From NCBI GenBank assembly GCA_030390025.1, contig CM059452.1, positions 9,548,001 to 9,612,000 on the forward strand: 64,000 nucleotides of DNA, given 5' to 3'. The notes beneath the pieces are model-generated. The model was not told the origin of the DNA. It searched no databases and saw only the letters and a program-made list of their open reading frames with translations. Position 1 is the stretch's first letter. Each line of letters begins with the position of its first letter. Position numbers and translations under genes: made by a program. The DNA is from Squalus acanthias. Taxonomy: Eukaryota. Below are positions 1 through 60,047 of this stretch, one piece after another.

Positions 1-274
1 GGGTATTTAAAGTAACCCAGGCGCCCGGTCTCATCAGCAGATAAACACCAAATCACATCAATCAGGGGCTCAATCCCTCAACAATATATTTTTCTGAAGA
101 AGCAGTTTAATTCTATGAACCCGTTTCAGCAGAATCAAATGAAGCATTGCAAAAAATCTCAATACAGAACCCCGCGAACACAAGTTTCAGGGAATGAATG
201 AATTGCTGAAATAAACAGAAATATAAAATAAAGACACAAATACAACAGTTATTGAAAGAGTGAATGGTTCTCAC

Positions 275-322
275 CTGCAATCACCGTCACCGTGGTGCCT
301 TGTCCCCAGTAGTCGAGGATAG
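275..322 (-). pseudogene. IgH JH segment lacking an RSS (LDYWGQGTTVTVIA, donor GTGAGA)
   Basis: WGQG motif and phase-1 donor. Positions 1-270 are homologous (reverse complement) to the JH-Cmu1 intron at about 44185-44460. The upstream side abuts the 67-bp satellite with no heptamer/nonamer. Confidence 0.88.
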
Positions 323-325
323 ATA

Positions 326-1135
326 GGTTAGATATCGAGTAAAGCTCCCTCTACACTGTCCCATCAAACACTCCCAGGGCAGTTACAGCACGGGTTGGAT
401 ACAGAGTGAAGCTCCCTCTACACTGTCCCATCAAACACTCCCAGTGCAGGTACAGCACGGATTAGATACAGAGTAAAGCTCCCTCTACACTGTCCCATCA
501 AACACTCCCAGTGCAGGTACAGCACGGGTTAGATACAGAGTAAAGCTCCCTCTACACTGTCCCATCAAACACTCCCAGGACAGGTACAGCACGGGTTAGA
601 TACAGAGTAAAGCTCCCTCTACACTCTCCCATCAAACACTCCCAGGGCAGGTACAGAACGGGTTAGATACAGAGTAAAGCTCCCTCTACACTGTCCCATC
701 AAACACTCCCAGGGAAGGTATAGCACGGGTTAGATACAGAGTAAAGCTCCCATACACTGTCCCATCAAACACTCCCAGGGCAGGTGCAGCACGGGTTAGA
801 TACAGAGTAAAGCTCCCATACACTGTCCCATCAAACACTCCCAGGGCAGGTACAGCACAGGTTAGATATCGAGTAAAGCTCCCTGTACACTGTCCCATCA
901 AACACTCCCAGGGCAGGTACAGCACGGGTTAGATACAGAGTAAAGGTCCCTATCCACTGCCCCATCAAATACTCCCAGGGCAGGTACAGCACATGTTAGA
1001 TACAGAGTAAAGCTCCCTCTTCACTATCCCATCGAACACTCCCAGGGAAGATACAGCACGGGTTAGATACAGAGTAAAGGTCCCTATCCACTGTCCCATC
1101 AAACACTCCCAGGGCAGGGACATCACGGGATAGAT
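326..1135. repeat. 67-bp minisatellite, about 12 copies
   Basis: Unit GGGTTAGATACAGAGTAAAGCTCCCTCTACACTGTCCCATCAAACACTCCCAGGGCAGGTACAGCAC; related copies at about 47670-47900 (inverted) and about 57630-57740. Confidence 0.95.
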
Positions 1136-2750
1136 ATCTGACACAGATGCACCAGGAAGCACAAACCCTGGGGATGATTCCCAGAGCCTGGGGCCTATCT
1201 GACACGGCATCTCTCCAGCTTTTAGACTGTATTTGAGGGAGAGGAGATGAGGGATCGCGCGGTGTCCACAGACACATTTGGAGCCTTCTGCGTCCAGTGG
1301 GCACAACTAGATAAAGTTTGTGATAAAATCAAATTCTAATGGAATATAATTTTAGTTTTGTTCAGGCCAAGTGTGCGAGTGGAGCCCTCCTCTCGGGTGG
1401 GCACTAGTGGAATATATTTTTGTTTTGGAATCGCCCCTTTAAAGGAGACCCGAGTTCAATTGGTCCACACAGAGCAAAGGAGCAAAGTAGGCCCAGCACT
1501 GGGGTAACCACTTCCAAGCCTTCTTCAATCTCAGCCACACCCATTCACCCTGGCCCTCTGTCTCCTGTTTCCCTGACGACATTTCTCCCTGCTCTGCTCC
1601 ATTCCCTCTGACATCATCTCCCTGAGCTCACTAAACATCACCATAGGGATCCGTTCTCCCTGTTCTTGCTCCATTCCCTCTCCAAGCATCTACCTGAACT
1701 CACTGAACATCACCTCAGGGATCCTTTCTCTCTGCTTTCCTCCGTTCCCTCTCATACCATCGACCTGAACTCACTGAACATCACCTCCGAGATCCGCAGT
1801 GACCTTCAGATCTTTGTTCCCTGTTTCCTTGAACTTTCGCTCCACGTCCTTCACCATCTCATCAGATTAGTTCGGTGACACCGTGCCACGTGAACATCTC
1901 CAGAGGTTTCTGGCCAGGCCCGAGTATCTTCTGGCATTTTCCTTCAAATGCGGTTCTGCTTCTCTTCGAAACTCCTTGAATTCAGGCGTGAGGTCTCCCA
2001 CAGTTGAATATGACATCGGGTTAAGAGAGAGAAGAATTAACAGACCGTCTGAAGGAAGATTGTGAATGTATGGAGTTGGTGCTTTAACTCCGTCTCTGCC
2101 AACATTTCTCACCCCTCCCCCTATCCGGGGCCGCCATCCCATCCAATATCACCCTCGTCTCACATCCCTGTTCCCAGGCTCTCACTGACTCCGGACTCGG
2201 TGATTCTCATGGAGTGCAGTGTCCCTTTAAGAGGCCCCGTGCTGCCCCCGCCCGTCCTCGGGTTCATAGGACTGAGTCAGGGGTCACAGGTGCCACAAAC
2301 TGGGGCTCTTTAGCGCTGAGCGGAGGCTGGAGACGCCCCGTGATCTCCTAACCCTGAATCAATGGGGGAAACCGCCAATAACGTTGCTGTGACATGCTGA
2401 GATATTATGGCGTCATCAACTGCAGGGCAAACCTGCGTTGGCCATGTTTGTGTGACATGGAGTCGGTAATGTTTGTGTGACGTATAACCGCTGCGCGATT
2501 GAAAAACAAATTTACATCAGTTTCCATCAAAATAAATGCTCGATCTTAATCGATTAAAGTGAAATTCTGGAATAAGAGAGAATAAAATGGTTGTCATTAA
2601 AAGGTTTTCTGAGGTGCAAATGTGCGGACAGTTCTCCCAGAGTGCAGCGCAGCCCGTGTCACAATGGGCCTTTTTCCCTGCCGCTGTGAATTGTGGGATC
2701 CTCAGCCCTCCATGGCCGAGTCATTAACTCAGTGAATCGAACCCAAACTC
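1136..2750. repeat. Low-copy duplicated module, copy 1 of 3
   Basis: Aligns by eye with about 18555-20165 and about 57790-59130. Confidence 0.8.
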
Positions 2751-3212: not shown

Positions 3213-4390
3213 TCTCTCTCCGTGCTCTGTATCACTGTGTGTCTGTAATCCTCACCATGTTCAGGATTGTGAACTCTCTCCGTGCTCTCTCTCACTGTGT
3301 GTCTGTAATCCCCACCATGTTCAGGTTTGTGAACTCTCTCCGTGCTCTGTATCACTGTGTGTCTGTAATCCCCACCATGTTCAGGTTTGTGAACTCTCTC
3401 CGTGCTCTGTATCACTGTGTGTCTGTAATCCTCACCATGTTCAGGATTGTGAACTCTCTCCGTGCTCTGTATCACTGTGTGTCTGTAATCCCCACCATGT
3501 TCAGGTTTGTGAACTCTCTCCGTGCTCTCTCTCACTGTGTGTCTGTAATCCCCACCATGTTCAGGTTTGTGAACTCTCTCCGTGCTCTCTCTCACTGTGT
3601 GTCTGTAATCCCCACCATGTTCAGGTTTGTGAACTCTCTCCGTGCTCTGTATCACTGTGTGTCTGTAATCCCCACCATGTTCAGGTTTGTGAACTCTCTC
3701 CGTGCTCTGTATCACTGTGTGTCTGTAATCCCCACCATGTTCAGGTTTGTGAACTCTCTCCGGGCTCTGTATCACTGTGTGTCTGTAATCCCCACCATGT
3801 TCAGGTTTGTGAACTCTCTCCGTGCTCTGTATCACTGTGTGTCTGTAATCCCCACCATGTTCAGGTTTGTGAACTCTCTCCGTGCTCTGTATCACTGTGT
3901 GTCTGCAATCCACACCATGTTCAGGTTTGTGAACTCTCTCCGTGCTCTCTATCACTGTGTGTCTGTAATCCCCACCATGTTCAGGTTTGTGAACTCTCTC
4001 CGTGCTCTGTATCACTGTGTGTCTGTAATCCCCACCATGTTCGGGTTTGTGAACTCTCTCCGTGCTCTGTATCACTGTGTGTCTGTAATCCCCACCATGT
4101 TCAGGTTTTTGTACGGCTCTCTCCGTGCCCTGTATCACTGTGTGTCTGTAATCACCACCATGTTCGGGTTTGTGAACTCTCTCCGTGCTCTGTATCACTG
4201 TGTGTCTGTAATCCCCACCATGTTCAGGTTTTTGTACGGCTCTCTCCGTGCTCTGTATCACTGTGTGTCTGTAATCCCACCATGTTCAGGTTTTTGTACG
4301 GCTCTCTCCGTGCTCTGTATCACTGTGTGTCTGTAATCCCCACCATGTTCAGGTTTTTGTACGGCTCTCTCCGTGCTCTGTATCACTGTG
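3213..4390 (-). repeat. Tandem array of the supporting-Vdelta 23-RSS (60-63-bp units, 20 heptamers)
   Basis: Minus-strand unit CACAGTG-ATACAGAGCACGGAGAGAGCCGT-ACAAAAACC-TGAACATGGTGGGGATTACAGACA. Canonical 23-spacer copies have heptamers at 4384, 4321, 4259 and 4136. Fifteen copies have a 20-nt spacer plus TCACAAACC/TCACAATCC; one is truncated. Confidence 0.95.
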
Positions 4391-4696
4391 CTGTGCGCGG
4401 ACTCAGTGCACAGTAATACACAGCGGAGTCACTCAGTTGCAGTTTCGCGATGTTTAACCGGCTGATTTTCTGCGCACCATCGACAGAAGCAGAAATTCGG
4501 CCCCCGGCAGCGTTTTCTTTATTCCCCTCTCCTGAAGTGTGTCTCTGAAGCAGGTATTTCGGAGCCTGCCCTAAGGACTGACGGTACCAATGTACTGTGT
4601 ACTGACAGAACCCTGAATATTCGCAGCTTAAAGTAACGGTGTCACCGGCAGCAGAGGATTGTAGAGGCGGACCCTGGGACACCGAGAAACTGGAAA
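4391..4696 (-). CDS. Leaderless supporting TCR delta V exon of NAR-TCR
   Basis: Open V domain (VTLSC..WYRQ..DSAVYYCAL) with an extra CDR1 Cys (SGFCQY). Phase-1 acceptor is in frame with the NAR J donor. No leader exon seen; perfect 23-RSS at 4352-4390. Confidence 0.9.
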
Positions 4697-4779
4697 CTGC
4701 GGGATTAAAATGGGGAAATGTTATTTATTTGGCTGTTGGTTACCGGGGACACTTGTCAATCACAGGAATAGTTCTGTCT

Positions 4780-7963: not shown

Positions 7964-8014
7964 CGGCTGTGACAGTCACCACCGTCCCGGATCCATCCAC
8001 ATGTTTATAATAAC
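7964..8014 (-). CDS. NAR-TCR J segment (YYKHVDGSGTVVTVTA)
   Basis: NAR-type DGSGT motif, donor GTAAGT, 23-RSS GGTTCTTGT-23-CACTGTG at 8015-8053. Confidence 0.92.
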
Positions 8015-8366
8015 CACAGTGACACCACTCTCAGTCACCCCGGTACAAGAACCGCCGACCCCTCAATCTGCCGGACACACATCACCAGACAGTCGGCGCT
8101 GCCCAATTATTCGAGGGATCAATAAATATTCCGTGTTCCACAGTCCCCGTCGGTTCAAACTGTTGTTTGTGAGACTCTGAGCTCTCAGTAAAATGGCCCA
8201 GGAACACAGGCCGGAGATGGGCGCTTCATAGAAACGGAGAAAATATCAAAGAAAGATAACTGGGAGCAGCAAATTACAATAAAATTAAACCAGATTACAG
8301 CGATAATAAGATCAAACCTACAATTCAGGTTCCGGGCCCGGGGAATTTATGTTTTAATTGTACACA

Positions 8367-8394
8367 GGTATTTGCTCAGGTCTCATCCACTGTG
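8367..8394 (-). other. 12-RSS downstream of NAR-TCR V(D)
   Basis: CACAGTG-GATGAGACCTGA-GCAAATACC. Confidence 0.88.
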
Positions 8395-8872
8395 AGGATG
8401 GCGCCTGTACCAGCTTTACAGTAATAGGTGGCGCTGTCTTCAACTCGCACATCCCGAATTTCCAACGAAAATGTATTTTCTGCCTTACTCTTCCTCACAA
8501 CAAATCGCCCTCCGCTCGAGATCCGCTCCCACTCTGTCCCGGTCTGGGTTCGTCTGAAGAAATGTCCATTATGGAAATTATAACCCCAAAAACCACCATA
8601 GAAAACACAGGTGATGGTAAGAGACTGACACTCCTCCCTGGTCACCGCTGGCGGGGTCTGTGCCACTGACTGACTGAAAGAGCCTGGAAATTAAACAGCG
8701 AGAGTTTAATGGGCCATCAGAGCCGAACCACACAACGGGGCTAAAACCCAGACAGTGTCTGTAATTCGGATGGACCGGGCAGCTTTATATTAAGTCCACA
8801 CAATGTCGGTTTGTTTGAGCGGTACTCACGGGGTAAACAGACACACAGGGTGAAAACAAGGAGGATTCCCAT
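8395..8872 (-). CDS. NAR-TCR V (VNAR-like), leader 8830-8872 plus V exon 8395-8683, probable germline-joined D
   Basis: Leader MGILLVFTLCVCLP; VNAR-like short FR2/CDR2 (ERISSGGRF), FR1 extra Cys (REECQSLTITC), VEDSATYYCKA followed by GTGAI and then a 12-RSS. Confidence 0.9.
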
Positions 8873-11755: not shown

Positions 11756-11817
11756 ACTAACTGGAACTCTCAGTGTGGGTTTTTGCACGGGATCCGCTGT
11801 ATCTCTGCAGCAGTGTG

Positions 11818-13178
11818 GGGCTCATGGCACAGAAATACACGGCGGAGATCAGGATTTTGCCGATCCTTAGCTCAGTAACCTTGGTAGTTTTATTAACGTA
11901 GAAGAGAATCGGTCAGTGAAGTCGGGGTTCCTGTTTACTATCCCTGCAATAATATAAACGACGTACTGTGTCACAGAGTTATAGAGTTATACAGCACAGA
12001 AAGAGATACTTCGGCCCATCGTGTCCGCGCCGGCCATCAAGCCCTATCTATTCTAATCCCATTTTCAAGCACTTGGTCCGTAGCCTTGTATGCTATGGCG
12101 TTTCAAGTGCTCAGCTAAATGTTTCTTGAATGTTGTGAGGGTTCCTGCCTCTACCACCCTTTCAGGCAGTGAGTTCCAGATTCCAACCACTCTCTGGGTG
12201 CAAAAGTTTTTCCTCAAATCCCCTCTAAACCTCCTGCCCCTTACATTGAAACTATGCCCCCTGGTTATTGACCCCTCTACTAAGGGGAAAAGTTCCTTTC
12301 TATCTACCCTATCTATGCCCCTCATAATTTGGTACACCTCAATCAGGTCCCCTCTCAGCCTTCTCTGCTCCAAGGAAAACAACCCCAGCCTGTCCAGTCT
12401 ATCTTCATAGCTGAAACACTCCAGCCCATGTAACATCCTGGTGAATCTCCTCTGCACCCTCTCCAATGCAATCACATCCTTACTATAGTGTGGCGACCAG
12501 AACTGCACACAGTATTCCAGCTGTGGCCTAACTAGCGTTTTGTACAGCTCCATCATAACCTCCCTGCTCTTATATTCTATGCCTCGGCTAATGAAGGCAA
12601 GTATCCCATATGCCTTTTTAACCACCTTATCTACCTGTCCTGCTGCCTTCAGGGATCTATGTACATACACACCAAGGTCCCTCTGATCCTCTGTCCTTCC
12701 TAGGATCCTCCCATTCATTGTGTATTCCCGTGCCTTGTTAGTCCTCCCAAAATGCATCACCTCACACCTTTCAGGGTTAAATTCCATTTGCCACTGTTCT
12801 GCCCATCTGACCAACCCGTCTATATCGTCCTGTAGCCTGAGGCTTCCCTCCTCCTGTGGTGGCTGGCCAAGGTACTGATTGTACCAGAACACTGTAGAGC
12901 TAGGATAGCTTGTTTTCAAGGTTCAGGTTAGTGTGACATTACTTTCCTCTTCAACCGTCATTTCAGGGACCGTCTGTTCCACTGTGTCTTGGTGGCTCCA
13001 TTCCAAAACAAAATAATAGTAATAGTGATTATCACCACCATCAACATCATCATCAGAAGCAGCATATTACCAATAATAACATCGGCGTTACAGCAGTCAA
13101 GGGGAGAATGGGTTTTCACTGGGAAGGAAATCCTTACTGAGTAGTGATATAAGGACGAGGAGTGAGACGTTTCCGCAT
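11818..13178 (-). pseudogene. TCR alpha/delta V pseudogene (paralog of 24409-24900), LINE-disrupted
   Basis: Leader ATG at 13178, mutated acceptor, Cys1 codon changed to TGA, LINE insertion in FR2, AVYFCAM end, RSS 11778-11817. Confidence 0.9.
11971..12853 (-). mobile_element. 5'-truncated CR1-type LINE inserted in V exon, CACAG target-site duplication
   Basis: Uninterrupted RT C-terminus ([36 protein letters not shown]); CTGTG at 11966-11970 and 12854-12858. Confidence 0.9.
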
Positions 13179-13880: not shown

Positions 13881-13991
13881 GGTTAATCTACGAGGAGTCC
13901 CGAGGCCCTTCTCACTGTGGGCCTCAGTGCACAGTAGTACACGGCAGCTCACTCAGGTTGAAAAAAGCGATAATTATGGACGTTTCCGGAT
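13881..13991 (-). pseudogene. 3' remnant of a TCR V with 23-RSS, 5' part replaced by the IgM duplication
   Basis: AVYYCALRP followed by CACAGTG-23-AGATTAACC; CTCF-like GGCCACCAGGTGACGCT at 13824-13840. Confidence 0.85.
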
Positions 13992-19700: not shown

Positions 19701-20343
19701 TGACGACATTTATCCCTGCTCTCCTCCATTCCCTCTTGTACGATCTACCTGAACTCACTAAACATCACCCCAGAGTTCATTTCTCGCTGCTCTCCTCCAT
19801 TCCCTCTGATACCAACTCCCTGAACTCACTGAACATCACTCCAGGGATCCACTAGTGACCTTCAGACCTTCGCTCCCGGTTTCAGTGAAGTTTCGCTCCT
19901 CATCCTTCACCGTCTTATCGGATTCTTTCGGAGCCTCCCGGCCACCTGAACATCTCCACCTATTTCTGGTCAACCCCGAGTATCTTCTAGAATGTTCCTT
20001 CTACTAGGGCGCTGCTTTTCCACGAAACTCCCCGAGTTTAGGCGTGAGGTCTCTTGTGGTTGGATAGCACATCAGGTTAAGGGAGGGAAGAATTAGCGGC
20101 CCTTCTGTAGGGCTCGGAAGTAAGTTTGGGAATGGATGGAGTTGGTGTTTAAACTGTCTCTGCCGCAGTGAAATAAAAAGGAATTTCACCTTAATTTATA
20201 TTGAGAAATATAACTGCGGATTGACCACCGCCCTTTGCCTGAACTGGTCGTTTTCGGGACCGATTTGACTGTCACCCAATCTACCCAGGCTTTGCTCAGA
20301 GTGGAGATATTGTAGGAGAGCGGGGTCTTTCCCCCACACTGTG

Positions 20344-21971
20344 GCCCACGGCACAGTAATAGATTTCGGTATCTGCCAACTCTGCCTGGCCGATACCGAG
20401 TGCGCTCAGACTTTGATCCCGGTCGGTGTGGATCTTAAACCGGCCTTGGTGGCGCTCTCCTTTGAATCCACAATGGATGTATCCCGGGGCCTCGCCCTCC
20501 AGTCGGCTGTACCAACAGATGTTGTCAGTGTTGCTGAACCCGCACTGGATCCTGACGGGGTTTCCTTCCACTGCGAACTCTCGGGCAGGTTGAGAATTCT
20601 GGGATAAACTCGGAGCATATTTGGACGCAATTTAAGAATTACACAGAATTTACAGCACAAGGATCCCTAGTAAAACTGAAGTCAATGGGAATCTGGGGGA
20701 AAACGCTCCACTGGCTGGAGTCATACCTAGCACAAAGGAAGATGGTTGTGGTGGTTGAAGGTCAATCATTACAGCCCCAGGACATCGCTGTAAGTGTTCC
20801 TCAGGGCAGTGTCCTCGGCCCAACCATCTTCAGCTGCTTCATCAATGACCTCCCCTCCAACATAAGGTCAGAAATTGGGATGTATTCTGATGACTGCACA
20901 GTGTTCAGCGCCATTCGCAACTCTTCAGATAATGAAGCAGTCCATGCCCGCATGCAACAAGACCTGGACGACGTTTAGGCTTGGGCTGATAAGTGGCAGG
21001 TGACATTTGCGCCACAGAAGTGCCAGGCAATGACTACCTCCAACAAGCGAGAGTCTAACCAACGCCCCTTGACATTCAATGGCATTACCATCGCCGAATC
21101 CCCCCCCCCCCCCCATCAACATCCTGGGGCTCACCATTGACCAGAAACTTAACTGGACCAGCCACATAAATACTGTGGCAACAAAAGCAGGTTAGAGCCT
21201 AGGTATTCTGCGGTAAGTGTCTCACCTCCTGACTCCCCAAAGCCTTTCCAGCATCTACAAGGCACAAGTTAGGAGTGTGATGGAATACTCTCCACTTGCC
21301 TGGATAAGTGCAGCTCTAACAACACTCAAGAAGCTCGACACCATCCAAGTCAAAGCAGCCCGCTTGATTGGCACCCCATCCACCACCTTAAACATTCAGT
21401 CCCTCCACCACCAGCGTGCCGTGGCTGCAGTGTGTACCATCTGTAAGATGCACTGCAGCAACTCGCCAAGTCTTCTTCGGCAGCACCTCCCAAACCAGCG
21501 ACCTCTTTCACCTAGAAGGACAAGGGCAGCAGGTGCATGGGAACACCACCACCTCCAAGTTCCCTTCCAAGTCACACACCATCCTGACTTAGAAGTATAT
21601 CGCCGATCCTTCATCGTCGCTGGGTCAAAATCCTGGAACTCCGTCCCGAACAGCACTGTGGGAGTACCTTCACCACACGGACTGCAGCGGTTGAAGAAGG
21701 CGGCTCACCACCACCTTCGCTCAAGGGCTATTAGGGATGGGCAATAAATGCTGGACTTGCCAGCGACGCCCACATCCCATAAACGAATAAAAATAAAATA
21801 TAAAAGAAACAGGCCATTCGTCCCAACTGGTCTATACCTGTCTTTATGCTGAACACGAGCCTCCTCACAACCCCATTGACATTGAAACACAGCAGTTTAT
21901 GGAGCAGAATTATTAAAAACAGATGAGTAACACTCACAGGATAAGAGCAGGAAGAGGTGAATATCCCCCAT
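20344..21971 (-). pseudogene. TCR alpha/delta V, probable pseudogene (leader 21938-21971, V exon about 20344-20610)
   Basis: Open V domain (VRIQC..ICWYSR..DTEIYYCAVG) and 23-RSS 20305-20343. The nearest AG acceptor is out of phase and the intron carries a LINE. Confidence 0.72.
20660..21800 (+). mobile_element. Non-LTR retrotransposon RT 3' fragment (CR1/L2-group), nested in a short repeat
   Basis: VPQGSVLGPTIFSCFINDL, YSDDC; poly-A-like tail; sister copy at 60185-61255. Confidence 0.88.
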
Positions 21972-23224: not shown

Positions 23225-23558
23225 ATGCTCCGGATTTATAGAGATTCCCTGCTGATTTACACCCTGATCTGCACGGATGTGAGCGGTGAAGATGAGGTGA
23301 AGCAGCTCCCTCGGCGGGTGGTTGTTCCTGAAGAGAGAATCGTGTCCATCAACTGCTCCGCTACCGCTGCCTTTACCTTCCTGCGCTGGTACAGAGAGCA
23401 CCCGGATCAGACCCTCCAGCACCTGGTGATGGCCACAAGCGGGACCGATCAACACGGGAGGATCACTGCTTCAATCGGGGGAGGCAATAAATTCAGTGCC
23501 CTGACTGTGAGAGACGCGCGAGTGACAGACAGCGCCACCTATCTCTGCGCCGTGAGCC
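23225..23558 (+). CDS. TCR alpha/delta V with leader and V in one exon
   Basis: MLRIYRDSLLIYTLICTDVSG-EDEVKQ..INC..WYRE..DSATYLCAVS; RSS CACAGTG-23-ACAGAAACC at 23559-23597. Confidence 0.85.
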
Positions 23559-24408
23559 CACAGTGTAACAAACAGGCGGAGAGTCCGCACAGAAACCTGC
23601 CCCGAGGGGCAGCGCCGCTCTGCTGTGTTTGGAGTAACGGGATTGGGACGGGCCCGGTTATAATAATCGGAGGACAGAGGGAATGAGCACAGAACAATGA
23701 TGATATATTGAAGAGAATTATTTAAAGAAAGTGAGAAATGAAGAGAATTGGAAACATAGACAGAGGAAAAGAAAGAGAAAACCCCAAAGAAAGAATGAGA
23801 GAGAGAAAGAGAAAAAGCGGTGTAATAATGAGAGTGTAGAGGACAGCAAATTAGGAAAGGAGGAAAGAGAAATGAAAGAAGTTGAGAAATAACGAGTGAG
23901 AAACACAAAGCTAAAAGGTAAGAGAAAGCCATAAAGAAAGAGATTCAGAAATAAAGTAAAATGTATTTTCCTTTAAATTAATTCACATTTCCCTTCCCAC
24001 TATTTACAAAGCTGAATTGTCTGAAACAATACACATTGTCTCCCAATAACAGGCCTCTGGAAACTGCCCCATCGATAAACTCACACTTTACTCTGCCGAT
24101 TTTCCCGACAGTGTAAAATTCTCAGAGTCACCGGCAGAGGGCGCCGTGGTCACATGTTTCTCGCCGTCATCAACTGGAAATTATAGAGACAAATCTTGCG
24201 GTGACACTGCCCGCGGCAGCCCCGCCCACAGCTTCCGTTTGCTGCTCTCGCTCTGACCCGCCTTGCCTGCCCTGTGTTATTGGAGAGATTGCTGCCGCTG
24301 TTCCCTGTTTGGCATTGCTTGGATCAGCAGTGCAGTGGGGCGGTGGTCTGTATTTCTGCTTCGACAGAGGATTTCCCGGACTGCAGAGTTGCAGACGCAG
24401 GGAGCATC

Positions 24409-24900
24409 ATGTGGAACCGTCTCGCACCGCTCCTCATCATTATATCACTTCTCAGTAAGTATTTCCTTCACATTCTCCCCCTGACTGCTGTAACCCAGAT
24501 GTTATTGTTGCTAAAATGATGCTGATTATGTTGCTTAAGATGACATTAATGGTGATGATGATGGTGATGATGACAATTACTGTTATTTTATGTTAGAATG
24601 GAGCCACCAAGACGCAGTTGAACAGCCGGTCCCTGAGATGACGGTTGAAGAGGAAAGTAATGTCACATTAACCTGCACCTTGAAAACAAGCGCTACTAAC
24701 ACTTATGTGTTCTGGTACAGTCAGCGCCCCGGGCAGCCTCCACAGTACGTGCTTCGTCTTATCGGAAGAAATGTAAACCGGAACCCCGACATTACTGACC
24801 GATTCAATTCTACGTTTAATAAAACTACCAAGATTACCGAGCTAACGATCAGCAAAGCCCTGATCTCCGACACCGCCGTGTATTTCTGTGCCATGGAGCC
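24409..24900 (+). CDS. TCR alpha/delta V, intact (leader 24409-24454, V exon 24597-24900)
   Basis: MWNRLAPLLIIISLL / VTLTC..FWYSQ..DTAVYFCAME; RSS CACACTG-24-ACAAAAACC at 24901-24940. Confidence 0.9.
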
Positions 24901-41196: not shown

Positions 41197-41412
41197 NNNN
41201 NNNNNNNNNNNNNNNNNNNNNNNNNNNNNNNNNNNNNNNNNNNNNNNNNNNNNNNNNNNNNNNNNNNNNNNNNNNNNNNNNNNNNNNNNNNNNNNNNNNN
41301 NNNNNNNNNNNNNNNNNNNNNNNNNNNNNNNNNNNNNNNNNNNNNNNNNNNNNNNNNNNNNNNNNNNNNNNNNNNNNNNNNNNNNNNNNNNNNNNNNNNN
41401 NNNNNNNNNNNN
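41197..41412. other. Assembly gap (216 N)
   Basis: N run. Confidence 1.
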
Positions 41413-43184: not shown

Positions 43185-43662
43185 ATGAGGTCGGCGATTT
43201 CTCTCATTCTGTTGCTGGCTTTCTTATCCCGTGAGTAGTTTTTATTGTCCAAGTCTCTCACTGTTACTGTCTCAGTGTAAGTCTCTCTCTGGAATATTAC
43301 AGAGTCAGGAATCATTTCACCAGGATTAATCCTCGGAGTTTTTGATTGTTTTTACAGGTGTCCAGTCGGATGACGTGTTGACTCAGCCAAAGGCAGAGAC
43401 CAGGAGTCCCGGAGGCTCCCTGAGACTGACCTGTAAAACCAGCGGGTTCAATCTTGGCAGCTATTACATGAACTGGATCCGGCAGGTTCCCGGGCAGGGG
43501 CTGGAGTTCGTGGCTCACTACTACACTTCATCGGACAAAGCCTACGCCCCAGGGATCCAGAGCCGATTTACTGCGTCCAAAGACACTTCAAACAGCATCT
43601 TCGCTTTGGACATGAAGAACCTGAGGACCGAAGACTCCGCCATCTATTACTGTGCAAGAGAC
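43185..43662 (+). CDS. IgM VH (leader 43185-43230, V exon 43358-43662)
   Basis: [59 protein letters not shown]; RSS CACAGCG-23-ACAAGAACA at 43663-43701. Confidence 0.96.
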
Positions 43663-44091
43663 CACAGCGAGAGGAACCAGGGCTGGACCCGTACAAGAAC
43701 AGAACGAGGGGACATTCAACAACTTCCATCATAATCTGACGGTCAGTAATTGTATTAAATGCGATCTGAACAGCATTGTTCAGAACCAGACCATACGCCG
43801 CTTCTTACTGAATTAACACACTGAAAATTCAATGGTAAAAAGCTAGCGCAGTAACCGATGTACTGAGGAGAGGTTTTGGCTGTGCTCATGTTTACTGTTC
43901 ACAGTGTCAGTAATGGCAGAGCTGGACTTAATGCTCGTCTCAATATGATTGATACCTGGAGGGAGTTGGTTGGGACTGTGTTCACTTTCTATTAAGTTGT
44001 GTAAACTGTTGGATAAATTCTAAACCAGATCAGAAGTGAATGTCTATTTGAAGTGAATGTTGAGAGGCGGCACTGCACAGGGAGTGAGTGC

Positions 44092-44119
44092 AGTATTTGT
44101 GTGGGTTCCTCTCACTGTG
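44092..44119 (+). other. 12-RSS upstream of pre-joined DJ
   Basis: AGTATTTGT-GTGGGTTCCTCT-CACTGTG. Confidence 0.9.
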
Positions 44120-44184
44120 GTACTACAGGGGTATACTCCACCTCGACTACTGGGGACAAGGCACCATGGTGACGGTGACTGCAG
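44120..44184 (+). CDS. Germline-joined D(D)JH (YYRGILHLDYWGQGTMVTVTA)
   Basis: D1-like GTACTACAGGGGT, then ATACT, fused in frame to JH with no internal RSS; donor GTAAGA. Confidence 0.9.
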
Positions 44185-48282: not shown

Positions 48283-48582
48283 CGACACAGTCTCCTCCCA
48301 CCCTCTACGCCCTGCTCTCCTCCTGTGAACAACCCAACACCGGCGGCCCCGTCACGTACGGCTGTTTGGCGATGGACTACTTCCCGGAAATCACTAGCCT
48401 TTCCTGGAGTAAAGATAAAGAGCCGATCACCACTGGGTTGAAGACCTACCCGTCAGTGTTAAACAAGAAGGGAACCTACACCCTGAGCAGCCAGTTAACC
48501 ATCACCGAGTCAGAGGTGGGGAGCAGCGCCATCTACTGCCAGGTTCGACGAAGTGATTCGGACTGGAGCGTCCAAATGCCAG
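48283..48582 (+). CDS. IGHM: IgM Cmu1 exon
   Basis: [44 protein letters not shown]; L-chain Cys present; phase-1 splice sites. Confidence 0.95.
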
Positions 48583-48599
48583 GTTAGTGTTGTGGGATA

Positions 48600-49460
48600 C
48601 AGGGGGAAACTGTGAAAAGCAGAGAAGTTATGTTCAACTTCTATACAACATTGCTGAGTCCAGACTTAGAGTACTGTGTACAGGTCTGGTCTCCATATCA
48701 CACTTAGAGTAATGTGCACAGGTCTGGTCTCCATATCACACTTAGAGCACTGTGTACAGGTCTGGTCTCCATATCACACTTAGAGCACTGTGTACAGGTC
48801 TGGTCTCCATATCACACTTAGAGCACTGTGTACAGGTCTGGTTTCCATATCACACTTAGAGTACTGTGTACAGGTCTGGTCTCCATATCACACTTCCAGT
48901 ACTGTGTACAGGTCTGGTTTCCATATCACACTTAGTGTACTGTGTACAGGTCTGGTTTCCATATTATAAGAATGATACAGAGGCGCTGGAGAAGTGGAAA
49001 AAAGATTTACAAGGACGATACCAGAACTGCAAAATTGTAACTGTCAAGAATGATTGAACGGGCTTGGGATCTTTTCTCGAGAAAGAGAAGGCTGAGGGGT
49101 GACCGAATAGAGGTCTTTAAAATTCTGAAGTGTTTTGAAAGGTTAGACGTCGAGAAAGTATTTTTGCTTGAGGAGGATCCCGATAGTCGGGGCCATAAAT
49201 ATAAGATAATCACTAATACATCCAATCGGGAATTCAGGAGAAACTTCGTTACCCAGAGAGTGGGTAGAATGTGGAACTCGCTGCCACATGGAGTAGTTGA
49301 GGTGAACAGCATAGATGCGTTTCAGGGGAATCTAGATAAGTACAGGAGGGAGAAAGGAATAGAAGGTTATGTTGATGGGGAGATGAAGTAGGGAGAGAGG
49401 AGGCTCATGTGGAGCATAAACACCGACCTGTTGGGCCGAATGGCCTGTTTCTGTGTTGTA
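48600..49460 (+). mobile_element. CR1-type fragment with internal 38-bp tandem repeat
   Basis: LEYCVQVW-coding unit repeated; RRLRGDRIEVFKI..MWNSLP. Confidence 0.82.
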
Positions 49461-49541
49461 GATTAAATGTAAAAAGCGCTTTACTGTTCTTAATTGTTTA
49501 GATTGCAACAAATAATCCCAATAAAATGTATTTTCTTGCAG

Positions 49542-49853
49542 ATCGTGTGGTTCATCATCCAACTGTGATCCTCACCCTGAGTTCCAGTGAAGAAATCAGC
49601 AGCAGCAGGTCTGCCATCGCCGTGTGTTCAATCATCGATTTCAGTCCAAAGTCGCTGACCGTGAATTGGCTGAAGAATGGGCAACTCATGGATTCGGGCT
49701 TCGTCACCTCTCCCGTCTTTAAAGTGAACGGGAACTTCTCGGCGACCAGTCGGCTGACATTCACCGCCGGGGAATGGTTCGCCGGATCGGTCTATACCTG
49801 CCAGGTCTCTCATCAAGGGGTCACCCAAAGCCGAAACATCACCAGATCTCCGG
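49542..49853 (+). CDS. IGHM: IgM Cmu2 exon
   Basis: [29 protein letters not shown]. Confidence 0.95.
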
Positions 49854-49911
49854 GTAAGAGACACAACCCCGAGCAGTTCCAGATCATTCTGAGCGCCGCA
49901 CTCAGTCAGGA

Positions 49912-51360
49912 GTCATAGTGTCATAACGGCACAGAAGGAGGCCATTCGGTCCATCGAGTCCATGATGGCTCTCTGCTGAGCAATCCAGTCAGTCCCATTC
50001 CCCCGCTCTGTCCCCGTAGCCCTGCAAGTTTATTTCCCTCAAGTGCCTATCCAGTCTCCCCTTGAAAACATTGAGTGTCTCCGCTTCCACCACTTCCGTT
50101 GGCAACGAATTCCAGGTTATCACCACTCGCTGCGTAAAAAAGTTTTCCTCACGTCCCCCCTGTATCTCTTGCCCAAAACCTTAAATCTGTGTCCTCTAGT
50201 CCTTGTACCATCAAATAGTGGGAAAAGCCTTTCCCCGTCTAGCCTATACAAACCCGTCATAATCTCATCCACTTCTATCAAATCACTCCTCAACCTCCTT
50301 TGCTCTAAGGAAAACAAATCCAGCTTCACCAAACTGTCCTTGTAGCTAAGATCCCACATCCCCGGAACCATTCTCGTAAATCTGCTCTGCACCCTCTCAA
50401 GGTCTTTCACATCCTTCCAAAAATGTGGTTACCAGAACTGGACGCAATACTCTAGTTGTGGCCTAACCAGTGCTTTATAAAGGTTCAGCATAACTTCTCT
50501 ACTTTTGTACTCAATACCTCTATTGTTTTATTGAACTTTTATTGGAATTATTAAAAAGCACACATCTATTTCAAATTTCCAATCATACAGTTCATGTTTC
50601 CTTCCGATGTCAGTGCTGACTCAGGGTTCCTCACGGTTCAGGATTCCATCACTTCGAAAAAGGGTTCCCTCAGCTGTGATGTCAGTCAGTGAGTGAGGTG
50701 TCCTTAGTCTCAGGTTTATCCTGAGTTGGCTGATCATATTCAGAGCGGCAGTAGGTGTCTAGGACCCTTTACTGGTAACTGTCTCGGGACCCACTGCTGG
50801 AAAGGACATCTGCCCTATTTAGAGAACTGCGTTCAATTCTGGACACCGCACATCAGGATGGATATACTGGCTTTAGAGGGTGAAACGCAAATTCACGCGA
50901 ATCATACCGGGGCTGAAAGGGATAAATTATGAGGACAGGTTGCATAGAATAGGCTTGTATTCCTTTGAGTATAGAAGATTAAGAGGAGATCCAATTGAGG
51001 TGTTTAAGTTGATAAATGGAATTGATAGGGGAGATAGAGAGAAACTATTTCCTCTGGTGCGGGAGTCCAGAACAAGGGGCATAACCTTAAAATTAGAACC
51101 GAGCCGTTCAGCGGTGATGTCAGGAAGCACTTCTTCACACAAAGGGCAGTGGAAATCTGGAACTCTCTTCCCCAAATGCTGTTGAGGCTGGGGGTCAATT
51201 GAAAATGTCAAAACTGAGATTGATAGATGTTTGTTAGGCAAGGGTATCAAGGGTTACAGAACCAAGGCGGGTAGATGGTGTTGAGGTGTAGATCAGCCGT
51301 GATCTCATTGAATGGCGGAACAGGCTGGATGGGCTGAATGGCCTGCTCCTGTTCCCATGT
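49912..51360. mobile_element. Two CR1-type fragments (49912-50520 -, 50820-51360 +)
   Basis: LERVQSRFTRMVPG.. and YEDRLHRIGLYS.. Confidence 0.82.
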
Positions 51361-52062
51361 TGTTATTACTGCCCTGCGGTCATATTTCCTTCTGACTCTC
51401 TCAGCAGACATGATAAATGTTCACTAATGACAGAAATGAACCAACTACTTCACATCGGCATTACACATTATTCTCCACCACAAAAGACCCCTTGGAACTC
51501 CATTCTCCCGACCTTTCACTTCTCCTCTGACGGGGGCTGCAACTGGTTCCTGGACATGTTCATCGCCCCCAAAATAGCAACAAGATACCAGAAAATTAAC
51601 TTTGTTTGCAGTTGCACCTAAAATCCTGGATATCATTTGACACTCGTTTTCAACCAGTGTAATTTTCGTGTACAGCTCTTGACCCTGGGCGTGGAACCAT
51701 TATAACGAGCGGGAATGCGTTCGGGCACAAGGATCTAGAGACGGCCGTAAAGGAGCAAGCGATTTCAGGAAGAGCACTATTCAGTGCGTAACACAATTGC
51801 GCCCGGATTTATTATTTTTTTACGCCAGGTATTTGCTTCACAGCCCATTACAGGAGGCTCTGGGAGCAAATACACAGGAAATGTTAAAGAGTCTCCCGGA
51901 ATCGTTGTCAATTCGTTGTCCTTCCAATAACGATGGTGTTTAAGCAACAACGAGAGGTTAATATCTCAAAGGTGATTTATTCTCACTGAGAGAGTGAAGG
52001 CTGAATACTGGTGTCCTGATTCTGAAGATGAAGCTTTGCTTGACTTTCATTTCTGTTCACAG

Positions 52063-52371
52063 ATGGTTCCTCATGCAACGATCCAGAAATCACTCTTCCG
52101 CAACCGTCACTAGAACAGGTCTTACTGGAGGCGACGGTGACCTTAACCTGCGTCGTGTCTAATGCTCCTTATGGAGTCAACGTGTCCTGGACCCGAGAAA
52201 AGGAGACTTTGAAATCAGAGATTGCCGTCCAACCCGGAGAGGCTCCCAACAGCGTGATCAGCAACTTAAACATCTCGACACAAGCCTGGCTGAGTGGGGA
52301 TGAGTTCTACTGCGTGGTGAGCCATCAGGATATGCCGACTCCTATAAGAGATTCCATCCACAAGGAAAAAG
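52063..52371 (+). CDS. IGHM: IgM Cmu3 exon
   Basis: [40 protein letters not shown]. Confidence 0.95.
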
Positions 52372-52887
52372 GTGAGCGGTGAGATTGGAGCAATAAGTGA
52401 GACTCTGTGACTATTTCCGGTGCTTGTGCACGGCCCAATTCGTTCTATTAAGTGTTTTAATGGACTGCTCTGATAATTCAATGGGTAATTCCACTAACTA
52501 AACCCTCTGGGACCCGAGATGATGCATTTAAGGGAAGCTGGATAAGTAATGAGGGAAAAAGGAATAGAAGGATATGTTATTAGGGTTAGATGAAGTAAGG
52601 TGGGAGGAGTCTCGTGTGGAGCATAAACAGCGGCATTGACCAGTTGGGCCGAATGGTCTGTTTCTGTGATGTGAATTCTATATAATTTTCCAGTCCAACT
52701 CTTCAAGCTCCCAGAGAGAAGGATTGTATCCCCCTCTGCTCCGGGCTGGAAAACCGGACAGGACACAGAGGGGGAAAGGGAATCCTTTAAAATTCAGCGC
52801 AAAGCACATTTCTCTCACATCTAACCGCCGGTTTCATTGTCTCTGGAATTCTCCAGTTTATTGACCTTTATTGTAATTGTTCTGCAG

Positions 52888-53279
52888 CTAAACATCCGCG
52901 GGAACCGTCCGTGTCTGTCCTCCTGCCCCCGGCAGAAGAAGTCTCCGCTCAGAGGTTCGTCAGCCTCACCTGCTTAGTGAGAGGTTTCTCCCCCCGAGAG
53001 ATCTTCGTCAAGTGGACCGTCAATGACAAGCCGGTGAATTCCGGCAACTACAAGAACACCGAGGTGATGGCGGAGAACGGCAGCAGTTCCTTCTTCATGT
53101 ACAGCCTGTTATCCATTGCAGCGGAGGAGTGGGCCAGCGGCGCTTCTTACTCCTGTGTGGTGGGACATGAAGCGATCCCCTTGAAGATCATCAACAGAAC
53201 GGTTAATAAATCCAGCGGTAAACCCAGTTTTGTCAACATTTCCCTTGTTCTGATGGACACCGTCAATTCTTGTCAATGA
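52888..53279 (+). CDS. IGHM: IgM Cmu4 exon plus secretory tailpiece (internal TM donor after 53217)
   Basis: [47 protein letters not shown]. Confidence 0.97.
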
Positions 53280-56508: not shown

Positions 56509-56786
56509 ATTCCTCAGACCACATCTTGATTGAAGACTATGAGGAAGAGAGCGGCAACATCTGGACAACCGCTTCCACATTCATCATCCTGTTCTTCCTG
56601 AGCATGTCCTACAGCGCTGCAGTCACTCTAGTGAAGGTGAGAAGATTCAATCCACTCACACTTCGATCTGACTGAAGCGGTTTGACAAATCTCTAAAAGT
56701 TTCATTGATAAAAAACCCTGAGATAAATGCCCCAAACCACTAAATCTCTGCTTCATTCTTTTATCCCTCTTTTACAGATCAAGTGA
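56509..56786 (+). CDS. IGHM: IgM TM1 (56509-56636) and TM2 (56778-56786)
   Basis: WTTASTFIILFFLSMSYSAAVTLVK / IK*; CART-like TM, splice phases compatible with the Cmu4 donor. Confidence 0.95.
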
Positions 56787-59621
56787 ACGGTTGAATTTCG
56801 GACGCCGTGGATTTTCCTCATCTGTTTATTAACATCTCTGTGTCCTGAAAATAAAATATATCCTCTTGGTGATTCTCAGAGTCAAATGTCTTCAGTTAAT
56901 AGATCCGAATCTGTAGCTGAGAAAATCATAACCGGGATTTCCGTCTCTCTGTTTGAAATGTGTGAGATCATCGTGGCTATAATGTAAATGTATCTTAGAG
57001 TTTCACCGTTGTTTGAATATTTCATGTGTAAATAAGTCACTTTTCTCGTTCCTAATTGACAATTGTTCCCTTCCCTTTATGTTGAGCCCCTGTTTTCTCT
57101 CCCTGGTGTCTGTTACAGTTGTACAGATAACTGGCAGCTCAGACCGCCTGTGATCTGGTCTCAATGTGACGCTCTGTTGTTATATTCACTTTGTGTTAAC
57201 TTTTTAAAAACTTCTCTGTAAATTGTTCTCTGTGAAATTGTTAATAAATCTGGAATGACAAATTGACTAATTTGGACTTTGCTGAATTCCTTTCTCCAAG
57301 GCTCCTCCACACCGCTCCATTTTCCCTATCACACTTTGTTTTATTTCCCTGACAGGTATTTTTCACCCGTCCTGTCTGGGTTGTGTTTGAACCCAAGTCC
57401 CTTCGGTTAAGGAGCCACTGCGCCACCCAGTGCCCTATCAGAGTAAAGACACCTTTACCCCCGCCTTTTTATGTCAAGACCCAGAGGCGGAATGACTGCA
57501 TAGCGACCAACAGCGACCAGGCGCACCTTGCAGTCTCCTCTAATATTATGTTCTGTAAAAGTCACATGCCAGGTTCTAATAAAGAGCAGGGCTCTGCTCC
57601 ATCACAGTGTGATACATTACAGTACATGGCAGAGTAAATCTCCCTCTGCACTGTCCCATCAAACACTCCAGGGCAGGTACAGCACGGGTTAGATACAGAG
57701 TAATGCTCCCGCTACACTGTCCCATCAAACACTCCCACGGCAGCTGCACACTTGTTATATAAGCACACAGACACCCAGGGCAGAGAGGAAAGAAGGAGAG
57801 ATTGTATTTGAGGGAGAGGGGATGAGGGATCACGCGGTGTCCTCAGGTATATTTGGTCACCGCTGGACACAGGTTGTGTGACAGTCGGACAAAATCAAAT
57901 TCTGATGGAATATCGTTCCAGTTTTGTTCAGACCAAGTGAGCGAGTGTAGCCCTCCTCTCGGGGAGGGCGCTATAGAATGTATTTTGTTGTTTTGGATTA
58001 GCCCTTTTAATGGAGTCCCGCGTCCAAATGGTCCACACAGACCATGAAAGAGTCGGCCCAGCACTGCGGTAACCACTTCTAACCTTCTCCAATCTGAGCC
58101 ACGCCCATTTATCCTGACCATCTGTCTCCTGTATCCCTGACGACCTTTCTCCCTGCTCTGCTCCATTCCCTCTTGTACCATCTCCATGAACTCAGTGAAC
58201 ATCACTACTGTGTACCGCCAGTGACCTTCAGATCTCTGATCCCTGTTTCTCTGCAGTTTTGATCCACGTCCTTAACCGGATCCTCGGGCTCTTTCGATGC
58301 CTCCCCGCCCCGGGAACATCTCCAGAGGTTTCTGGCCAGACCCGAGTATCTTCCGGCATTCTCCTTTTGATGCAGTGCTGCTTTCCCTCTGAGCTCCTGG
58401 AGTCCAGGCGCGACGTCTCCTCTGGTTGAATATATGATCAGGTTGAGGAACGGAAGAATTAGGCGGCCCTTCTGAAGGGCTGAGAAGGAACATTGCAAAT
58501 GGATGGAGTTGCTGTTTAAACTATGTCTCTGCCCCAATCTCTCTCCCTCCCCTCAAAGCGAGAAATACCTTCAGCCACCATCGCTGTGTCTCCCGGCTCT
58601 GTATCCTGTCCCCAGGCTCCGAGAATATCGGGTGGTGCAGGGCCCATTGAAGACTTTCCGAGCTGAACCCCCGGGGTCACAGCTCTGGGTCAGGGGTCAC
58701 AGGCTGCACACACGGGGAATCTTTAGCGCTGAGCGGAGCCTGGAGACTTCCCGTGACCTCTGACCCTCAATGAACGTGAAAAACAGCCAATTGCGGTGCT
58801 GTTACATGCGAAAAGCATTGTTGCGTCATCCAGTGCAGGTCAAACCCGTGACGGCCATGTTTGTGTGACGTGCGGTGTGACGTGTGACTTCAATTCCCAC
58901 AAAAGAAACGGTCTCCCTTTCTTAATAAAAAGGAGAAAATATGCGACAGAGATAAAGATACAGACAGCGATAATTGAAGCGGTTGGCGAGTTGCGCATGT
59001 GCGAACAGTGCTCCCAGGGAGCAGCACGGCCCGTGGTCGACATTGGGCCTATTCTGGCCCGCTGTGCATTGTGGGAATCTCTGTCCTTCATGGCTGCTTA
59101 AATCACTGACAGGGTGTGAGCCAACTGAACCTCTGAATGGCAATTTATTACAGCCTCCCTCGGGGAAACTGCCACACAGTCAGAGTTCTCCTTACAGGCC
59201 AATAGCACTTGGTCAGATTTATTGCAGGTTAACTAACGCACGGAAGTTCAATGAGGCAGCCAGTGACCGGAACAGCAAGAATAGCGAAAGAGTTCAGAAA
59301 TCTCTCTATTTTCTCCACAGATCTCCCGAAACATTCAACTAATTTTCTCTTTCATGTCCTCTCCCATTCGGTTGTGGGTTTCCAACACCTCTGTTTTCAA
59401 GATTGGAAAGTGGCATCTAAATATAGTGAAACTAAAATAGAGTAATGGGTCGGAGGATTTCCCGAGCACCTCAATACATTAAGTACTTGGTTTTGAAGGA
59501 ATACACGAGATGAAATAACACACACAGGCAGAATATGGGAACCAGATCCTGTCCCATTAACGGAGCGGCCAGCAGGAGGTTCCTGGCGCTGTCAGCAACC
59601 TCTTTCTCGGAGCTGATCTTA

Positions 59622-60047
59622 ACATTATTCACTGACCTGTCTGCAGTTCCTGTTTATGGGAAGCTGGGTTAGAGCGGTTCTGAATTAATATGCCGTGCAG
59701 CAGTAAAGGTTTTATATCGTTAAACTAAAGACTGGAAGAAGAAAGTCCATGCGATTAGTAAAGTGTGGAGACAAGGGATGAGAAGAGACAGGCAGGCACG
59801 GAAATTGCATCGAAAGACAAAAGGTGAGTTGTGGCACCACAGACATGATTGCTGAAGTTCATTTTTAGTATAAATGCGAGTTGAAATCACAAACGAACAT
59901 AATTCGGCCAGGGGACCTCACCTGTTCTTGTTGAGTGCTGAGTTTTTAAAATATTTTTAAGGAGATCCGTGTGACTCTCACTGTGGAGGCTGAATTATTG
60001 CTTCTGGTTATCGGTGTGAGAGCGCCCTCTCAGTGTGCGTTTTGGTA
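59622..60047 (-). other. Orphan 3' flank of the MWNRLAP V family (V itself absent)
   Basis: Homologous to 11342-11786 and ends at a degenerate nonamer. Confidence 0.75.

What the first reader, a model, noticed from the sequence alone, without database searches (positions are those of the whole stretch)
1..60047. IgH clusters interleaved with TCR alpha/delta V genes and NAR-TCR, with 12/23-compatible cross-family partners
Seen: IgH parts (JH at 275, TM at 17038, a full IgM cluster at 43-57 kb) alternate with TCR V genes, and TCR V-family flank sequence recurs beyond the IgM cluster (59.6-60.0 kb). Three intact + strand TCR Vs with 23-type RSS lie 16-21 kb upstream of, and co-oriented with, the 12-RSS DJ-Cmu. 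Established: sharks use IgH V on TCRdelta. Inference: the reciprocal product, TCR V-DJH-Cmu, is a legal one-step deletion here, and the VH could also join Ddelta.
Basis: partly seen in the sequence, partly recalled or inferred. Interest (0 to 1): 0.75.

Follow-up and report, generated by a model that had tools for sequence, protein, structure and literature searches.

The report
Shark antibody genes amid T-cell genes
In this shark, antibody heavy-chain gene clusters really do sit among T-cell receptor gene segments with compatible joining signals, an arrangement already described in other sharks, but every inherited join checked used the antibody's own segment, so the proposed hybrid receptor is likely at most a rare by-product.

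Summary
The window lies in a 4.4-Mb array on G000:C29 with 27 close IgM Cmu3 copies, 21 NAR-TCR V and over 100 TCR alpha/delta-type V matches, on both strands. A gap-free paralogue is colinear across the N stretch, so there is no mis-join. The 12-RSS 'DJ' is a germline-joined D1-D2-J (V-DDJ), repeated with the same junction in a second locus. Three intact TCR Vs lie 16-21 kb upstream, co-oriented and 12/23-compatible. The interleaving is published for great white shark and others (PMC12227049, text and Table S1). The proposed TCR V-DJH-Cmu product is legal but unsupported. Of 37 VH-bearing clusters, 22 carry a germline V-side join (16 junction strings), and all used the cluster's own VH; 7 of them have a co-oriented TCR V within 30 kb. 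Corrections: the JH at 275 has lost its RSS and VH, the TM at 17038 is an orphan duplicate, and 59.6-60.0 kb is flank only. No earlier scan note on this was found. Verdict: new member of a known kind, with a cheap, testable residual hypothesis.

The parts
273..316 (-). JH remnant without RSS, head of a V-less IgM cluster whose Cmu and TM exons lie left of the window (1-nt insertion in Cmu3)
326..1136 (.). 67-bp tandem repeat standing where the RSS, D and VH of that cluster would be
3214..4390 (-). 60-63-bp minisatellite of RSS-derived units behind the supporting V-delta: 20 heptamer units, 4 complete 23-RSS
4389..4700 (-). NAR-TCR supporting V-delta, open frame, 23-RSS
7964..8053 (-). NAR-TCR J with 23-RSS and splice donor
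8367..8872 (-). NAR-TCR leader and V, joined to D in the germline (VD-J), ending in a 12-RSS
11778..13178 (-). TCR V pseudogene of the 24.6-kb family, with a stop and a LINE insertion
13886..13950 (-). 3' fragment of a TCR V next to the duplicated IgM segment
14211..18176 (+). Orphan duplicate of the IgM 3' end with TM1 (17039-17166) and TM2, no CH exons
20311..20604 (-). TCR-type V, open frame, with a repeat insertion where the leader would be
23225..23597 (+). Intact TCR alpha/delta-type V, leader and V in one reading frame, 23-RSS at 23559
24409..24940 (+). Intact TCR alpha/delta-type V, split leader, RSS at 24901 (24-nt spacer)
27648..28127 (+). Intact TCR alpha/delta-type V, split leader, 23-RSS at 28089
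28954..29298 (+). TCR V pseudogene (first Cys lost, stop) with 23-RSS
30911..31276 (+). TCR V pseudogene (no continuous frame) with weak 23-RSS
41197..41412 (.). N stretch; flanks colinear with a gap-free paralogue
43185..43701 (+). IgM leader, VH (43360-43662, open) and 23-RSS
44092..44184 (+). 12-RSS (44092-44119) and germline-joined D1-D2-JH, open in the J frame
48283..53279 (+). Cmu1-Cmu4 with secretory tail
56509..56787 (+). IgM TM1 and TM2 exons
59625..60035 (-). 3' flank of the 24.6-kb TCR V family, no V coding sequence

Best explanation
This is a piece of a shark antigen-receptor complex in which IgM clusters, TCR alpha/delta-type V genes and NAR-TCR units are interleaved, likely through repeated block duplication, and the IgM cluster's pre-joined D-D-J is most likely completed by its own VH 456 bases upstream rather than by the TCR V genes 16-21 kb away. 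Shown: the parts, their RSS types, the recurrence of the same TCR V-to-IgM module in other copies, and that every germline V-side join examined stayed inside its cluster. Inferred: germ-cell RAG activity joined D1-D2-J once and the block was then duplicated. In B cells one RAG deletion (VH 23-RSS x D1 12-RSS) would finish the gene. In thymocytes the TCR Vs would join D-delta or J-alpha over long range. A TCR V-DDJ-Cmu join is legal and may arise as a rare thymocyte by-product, but is predicted not to be a regular receptor chain.
For: Array: 27 Cmu3 matches at >=93% on C29 5.97-10.27 Mb (of 150 listed); 21 near-full NAR V matches on C29 (of 56); 73 matches at >=70% on C29 for one TCR V family, 35 on + and 38 on - (of 150 listed). 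The same TCR V families occur on scaffold C911, which carries Cmu exons at 0.1-5 kb, D-delta, J-delta, C-delta at 583 kb and a second TCR constant TM match at 784 kb behind J-alpha-type segments. Module: 12 of 29 clusters tested have a co-oriented V of the 24.6-kb family within 30 kb upstream of JH. Germline DDJ: GTACTACAGGGG is a D1 start, TATACT a D2 core, then J; the junction is identical in L001, and L002 has a different DDJ. Census: 22 of 37 VH clusters are V-side joined, 16 distinct 24-nt junction strings, all VH of two IgM families; 7 of the 18 joined clusters tested have the co-oriented TCR V within 30 kb. All 16 D1 3'-RSS and 20 D2 3'-RSS exact matches lie in IgM clusters with a VH; the one unlisted D1 has an ordinary free VH. 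Contigs of four runs (RNA is the tool's guess) bridge JH-Cmu1 at GT..AG and join VH to JH with varied junctions (family level at 85% likeness, not this locus). Literature: PMC12227049 (TCR V exons between IgH clusters; Table S1), PMC2435157 (rearrangement only within a minilocus), PMC2193156 (germ-cell joining).
Against: The census is small. About 13-16 independent events give a rule-of-three upper bound near 20% per event (inference). It samples germ cells, not thymocytes, and fixed alleles are filtered by selection. In nurse shark thymocytes most IgH clusters are partly rearranged, V-DDJ included (PMC2435157, passages), at the stage when TCR Vs are open, so a chance to form the join exists. 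Cross-family joins in the other direction are common in sharks (PMC12227049). The nurse shark PCR cited used VH and JH primers and could not have seen a TCR V-JH join. C29 and C911 are separate scaffolds; their order and distance were not established.
Confidence: 0.82

Rival explanations
1. One reading: TCR Vs regularly join the pre-joined DDJ, and TCR V-DDJ-Cmu is expressed as a receptor or secreted chain, the mirror image of IgH V on TCR delta.
For: One legal deletion suffices: three intact co-oriented Vs, a free 12-RSS, an open DDJ frame and intact Cmu exons. All three V-DDJ clusters found have such a V within 30 kb. In the other two the own VH is damaged: an internal deletion in L001 and a changed heptamer in L002. 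Hybrid TCR chains from interlocus joins reach the surface in human T cells (PMC2191748, abstract).
Against: 0 of 22 germline V-side joins use a TCR V. Nurse shark thymus has very little Ig mRNA (PMC2435157, section 15). No report of this direction turned up in searches or 56, but three key papers could not be read.
Confidence: 0.07
2. The interleaving is kept because it feeds IgM VH genes to TCR delta: the clusters inside the V array act as extra V donors for D-delta.
For: VH 23-RSS fits the D-delta 5' 12-RSS. IgM and IgW V on TCR delta are reported as common (PMC12227049 introduction; PMC5931798 passage). An IgM cluster sits on the same scaffold and strand as C-delta.
Against: A separate block of at least 9 VH-like Vs with better RSS lies 38-156 kb from D-delta and forms its own clade. 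22 of 37 IgM VH are already joined in the germline and cannot donate. Half of the window's TCR Vs and both outlying IgH parts are broken, as expected from duplication churn.
Confidence: 0.25
3. The juxtaposition of TCR Vs and the IgM cluster is an assembly mis-join at the N stretch.
For: 216 N lie between them, and the region is rich in near-identical duplicates.
Against: A paralogue with no N is colinear over about 30 kb across the same point. The module recurs in 12 of 29 clusters. Great white shark shows the same interleaving.
Confidence: 0.02

Closest known systems
Elasmobranch antigen-receptor complex (AgRC), Flajnik et al., Sci Adv 2025, PMC12227049 (read: parts 1-2 of 8, section 15, passages, part 1 of 2 of Table S1)
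   Same: IgH miniclusters linked to TCR alpha/delta, with TCR-type V exons and NAR-TCR between them. The great white sheet lists IgM, NARTCR and TCRa/dV alternating, 'NARTCR V(gj)', 'IgM (missing V)' and 'NARTCRdV (part of above IgM?)'.
   Different: That work used gene models. In the parts read it gives no RSS-level anatomy, no census of germline joins and no discussion of TCR V on Cmu. Linkage to PSMB5, IgW and UrIg2 was not tested here.
Germline-joined shark IgH clusters (VD-J, VD-DJ, VDJ): PMC5192425 and PMC2193156 (passages read)
   Same: A mixture of open, partly joined and fully joined clusters, with trimmed D and added nucleotides.
   Different: The window's form leaves V free and joins D1-D2-J (V-DDJ). 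The passages read list VD-J, VD-DJ and VDJ; V-DDJ appears only as a somatic thymocyte intermediate (PMC2435157, passages). Searches found no germline V-DDJ, but the library lacks most of the older shark literature.
Shark IgH V to TCR delta trans-rearrangement and TAILV (Criscitiello 2010, Deiss 2019, Ott 2021: not held, known here only as cited in PMC12227049 and PMC5931798)
   Same: Uses the same 23-RSS V with 12-RSS D compatibility across families.
   Different: Direction is Ig V onto TCR D-J-C. The window's proposal is the reverse and has no product shown.
NAR-TCR (doubly rearranging TCR delta; described in passages of PMC6795676 and PMC5931798)
   Same: NAR-type V with its own D and J, followed by a supporting V-delta; 84% to basking and horn shark models.
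   Different: Here V-D is pre-joined, and the supporting V is followed by an RSS-derived minisatellite and a V-less IgM remnant.
Human interlocus V(D)J trans-rearrangements (PMC2191748, abstract and reference list only; IgH-TCR alpha inv(14) fusions seen as titles)
   Same: 12/23-legal joins between loci occur at low frequency and can be expressed.
   Different: They need a chromosome-scale inversion, whereas a 16-21 kb deletion would do here.

Membership tests
Elasmobranch AgRC (IgH-TCR alpha/delta complex) | TCR alpha/delta-type V exons between IgH miniclusters | tested here: met
   The Vs are V-set and fall outside the VH clade (98/97 support). Several of the longest PDB matches of the 24.6-kb V are TCR alpha chains, though antibody constructs score as high. 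Both families tested also lie upstream of D-delta on C911.
Elasmobranch AgRC (IgH-TCR alpha/delta complex) | IgM physically linked to TCR delta and alpha constant genes | tested here: inconclusive
   Met on C911 (Cmu, TCR Vs, D-delta, C-delta, second TCR TM). The window's scaffold C29 is not joined to C911 in this assembly.
Elasmobranch AgRC (IgH-TCR alpha/delta complex) | Linkage to IgW, IgNAR, UrIg2 and PSMB5 | not tested
   Only weak NAR-like V matches (40-51%) at C29 16.7-18.0 Mb were seen.
Shark IgM minicluster | V(23)-(12)D1(22)-(12)D2(12)-(23)J then Cmu1-4, secretory tail, TM | tested here: met
   Full signal set in open paralogues such as L003-L005. The window has the same V-D spacer, J and C exons with D1-D2-J fused.
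Germline-joined IgH cluster | Inner RSS gone, trimmed segments, junction inherited | tested here: met
   Identical junction in L001, on the opposite strand about 220 kb away, 95% alike over the 861-bp query.
NAR-TCR | NAR-type V with own D/J and RSS, upstream of a supporting V-delta with 23-RSS | tested here: met
   both domains pair with basking shark model domains at 100/99 and 97/94.
NAR-TCR | Three-domain transcript on C-delta | not tested
TCR V-DJH-Cmu trans-rearrangement | 12/23-compatible, co-oriented partners | tested here: met
TCR V-DJH-Cmu trans-rearrangement | A TCR V actually joined to IgH D or J in the germline | tested here: not met
   0 of 22 V-side joins in 37 VH clusters; 4 more joined clusters on other scaffolds are also VH; no orphan D1 or D2.
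TCR V-DJH-Cmu trans-rearrangement | Junction in lymphocyte DNA or cDNA | not testable with these tools
   Only assembled contigs were on offer, which drop rare variants.

The most novel reading that the evidence does not exclude
Shark thymocytes or B cells delete 16-21 kb to put a TCR alpha/delta V on the pre-joined DDJ, and express an IgM heavy chain with a T-cell receptor V domain. The three V-DDJ clusters, two of which have a damaged own VH, would be the loci biased towards it. This would make V-domain exchange between antibodies and TCR run in both directions. A silent DNA-level join at low frequency is much more likely (about 0.4, a judgement) but far less interesting.
Probability: 0.07. 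Interest if true: 0.7.

Novelty: new member of a known kind. Interest (0 to 1): 0.3.

Why it matters
The arrangement is known, so the value is in the detail. It shows that shark IgM clusters sit inside the TCR alpha/delta V array with fully compatible signals a few kb apart, yet inherited joins stay inside the cluster. That sharpens an open question which PMC12227049 raises for TCR alpha: what keeps these families apart? It points to distance and lineage-specific chromatin rather than RSS type. The V-DDJ clusters are the best place to look for a TCR V on IgM, since one join finishes the gene and one primer pair tests it.

Tried and rejected
Expression: no RNA holder listed among 21 runs. Four runs guessed to be RNA were laid on 43000-48660 only, which does not include the TCR Vs. 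None of the 24 loose ends shown lay at the 5' edge of JH (563 not shown), and none of the 9 VH-JH junction strings shown carried this locus's DDJ (134 rows not shown). Contigs drop rare variants, so this is no evidence either way. Protein searches for longer proteins with these TCR Vs (51 and 3 hits) gave no TCR V plus Cmu model, but few shark hits came back, so this is weak. Idea that NAR-TCR plus the V-less IgM is a working NAR-Cmu unit: the pairing recurs in 5 copies, but all 5 share the same RSS-less JH, the window's copy has a Cmu3 frameshift, and 3 gave no close Cmu3 match; rejected as a duplicated remnant, splicing untested. Idea that the DDJ is a somatic rearrangement caught in the assembly: rejected by the second locus with the same junction. 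The unlisted D1 at C29:5,802,620 was checked as a possible TCR V-D1 join and is an ordinary open cluster. Alpha versus delta use of each V could not be assigned; the tree is weak at that depth (two intended reference rows failed to parse and were left out). Criscitiello 2010, Ott 2021 and Deiss 2019 were not held; they may state whether TCR V on IgH C was sought. The supplementary PDF and part 2 of Table S1 of PMC12227049 were not read. RSS consensus motifs and the meaning of the supporting-V CDR1 cysteine are recalled, not from a call.
Full report
Observation. The strict RSS count is 10, against 0-1 in each of 20 shuffles. From left to right: a - strand JH remnant, a NAR-TCR unit (supporting V-delta, J, V), damaged TCR Vs, an orphan IgM TM duplicate, three intact + strand TCR-type Vs, two pseudogene Vs, the N stretch, and a complete IgM cluster. 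The homologues are shark proteins at up to 84%. The three intact Vs have RSS at 23559, 24901 and 28089, i.e. 20.6, 19.2 and 16.0 kb from the 12-RSS at 44092-44119. The middle one has a 24-nt spacer, as do the family copies seen.

The two outlying IgH parts are remnants. The JH at 275 abuts a 67-bp tandem repeat and has no RSS, D or VH. Its Cmu exons lie left of the window, and Cmu3 carries a 1-nt insertion. The TM at 17038 belongs to a 4-kb duplicate of the cluster's 3' end that sits against a truncated TCR V. The 59.6-60.0 kb match is flank only.

Linkage. The window is G000:C29:9,548,001-9,612,000. A paralogue at 9,354-9,414 kb has no N and is colinear on both sides of the N stretch at 95-98%, with 293 bp in place of the 216 N. 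The one other N run met in the fetched stretches scanned for N was 500 long. A co-oriented V of the 24.6-kb family lies within 30 kb upstream of JH in 12 of 29 clusters tested (8 of the 37 were left out of that call). The juxtaposition is therefore real and belongs to a repeatedly duplicated module (inference from the recurrence).

Context. C29 5.97-10.32 Mb holds 27 close Cmu3 matches, 21 near-full NAR V matches and 73 matches of one TCR V family on both strands; a second family adds 44 near-full matches genome-wide (of 150 listed). These are lower bounds. The TCR constant genes lie on a separate scaffold, C911: Cmu exons at its start, TCR Vs of the same families, at least 9 VH-like Vs with clean 23-RSS, one D-delta with 12/23 flanks at 557.9 kb, five J-delta with 12-RSS, C-delta at 583 kb, J segments with 12-RSS at 775-777 kb and a second TCR TM match at 784 kb.

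The DJ. Open clusters read V(23)-(12)D1(22)-(12)D2(12)-(23)J. The window's segment is the start of D1, a D2 core, a few added bases and J, in frame without a stop. The same junction stands in L001, so it is inherited; L002 is an independent V-DDJ whose VH heptamer is changed. One RAG deletion would finish the gene (established V(D)J logic).

Test of the inference. Germ-cell joining (PMC2193156, passages) leaves a record of which partners were used. Of 37 clusters with a VH, 22 are joined on the V side, with 16 distinct junction strings (about 13-16 events, my estimate), and all use a VH of one of two IgM families. Seven of the 18 joined clusters tested have the co-oriented TCR V within 30 kb. 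Four more joined clusters on other scaffolds are VH too. Exact-pattern scans found 16 D1 and 20 D2 3' signals; all lie in IgM clusters, and the single unlisted D1 has a free VH. Five further JH are V-less remnants behind NAR-TCR units. No TCR V-IgH join was found. The bound is loose (near 20% per event by the rule of three) and germ cells are not thymocytes. Contigs of four runs bridge JH to Cmu1 at GT..AG and join VH to JH with varied junctions, at family level; they cannot test a rare chimera.

Mechanism. Most likely the cluster is completed in B cells by its own VH at 456 bp, and the TCR Vs serve D-delta or J-alpha in T cells (inferred). Nurse shark data fit: rearrangement only within a minilocus, extensive partial IgH rearrangement in thymocytes, very little Ig mRNA there (PMC2435157; abstract, passages, section 15). 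Those same data leave room for a rare TCR V-DDJ join in thymocyte DNA, which VH-primed PCR would miss. VH to D-delta is legal and of a published kind, but the VH-like block on C911 is the nearer source.

Known or new. PMC12227049 reports the IgH-TCR alpha/delta linkage in four elasmobranchs and states that TCR-type V exons lie between IgH clusters. Its Table S1 shows IgM, NARTCR and TCRa/dV alternating in great white shark, with germline-joined NARTCR and V-less IgM noted. Searches found no report of TCR V on shark Cmu and none of germline V-DDJ, but three key papers were not held. No earlier scan note bears on this.

Verdict. Observation confirmed; interpretation partly supported (legal, not shown, and disfavoured by the germline record). 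New member of a known kind, interest 0.3. Expressed TCR V-IgM chain: probability 0.07, interest 0.7 if true.

Noticed in passing
window 3214-4390; L041, L044-L047, L050-L054, L056, L057: The supporting V-delta's RSS is amplified as a 60-63-bp minisatellite. 13 of 13 copies examined carry 2-25 heptamer units within 1.5 kb, with 0-4 complete 23-RSS. A read-through protein from another source (P0056) appears to run into the same repeat. Extra signals could act as decoys; untested.
   Followed up: partly
window 8367-8872; L041-L057: NAR-TCR V(D)J is often joined in the germline: of 23 NAR Vs examined, 12 are open, 5 VD-J and 6 fully VDJ. 'NARTCR V(gj)' is noted in Table S1 of PMC12227049.
   Followed up: partly
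window 1-8900; L044+L076, L046+L075, L057+L078, L073+L050: Five copies of NAR-TCR unit, then RSS-less JH, then Cmu on one strand, 7-12 kb from NAR V to JH. It resembles the proposed origin of IgNAR (NAR V moved onto an IgH C), but looks decayed; NAR VDJ-to-Cmu splicing was not tested.
   Followed up: partly
window 23225-23557: A TCR V family whose signal peptide and V lie in one reading frame with no leader intron; 44 near-full matches of 150 listed. Antigen-receptor genes normally have a split leader; an upstream exon was not excluded.
   Followed up: partly
G000:C911 401-520 kb (L033, L034, L084-L086): At least 9 VH-like V genes with clean 23-RSS, 38-156 kb upstream of D-delta, forming their own clade beside IgM VH. 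Likely the TAILV/IgH-V block; membership not tested.
   Followed up: partly
L001-L020, L061-L080: One genome shows almost every partial IgH join: V-D-DJ, V-DD-J, VD-D-J, V-DDJ, VD-DJ, VDD-J and VDDJ. This mirrors the unordered somatic joining reported for nurse shark.
   Followed up: yes
P0015, P0027, P0031, P0035, P0036, P0048: Mustelus asterias gene models show at least two distinct TCR delta-like constant sequences on several contigs; haplotigs or true duplicates not resolved.
   Followed up: no
window 32498-36453 and 62103-64000: Long 27-bp and 28-bp minisatellites that give repetitive open frames; not coding evidence.
   Followed up: no
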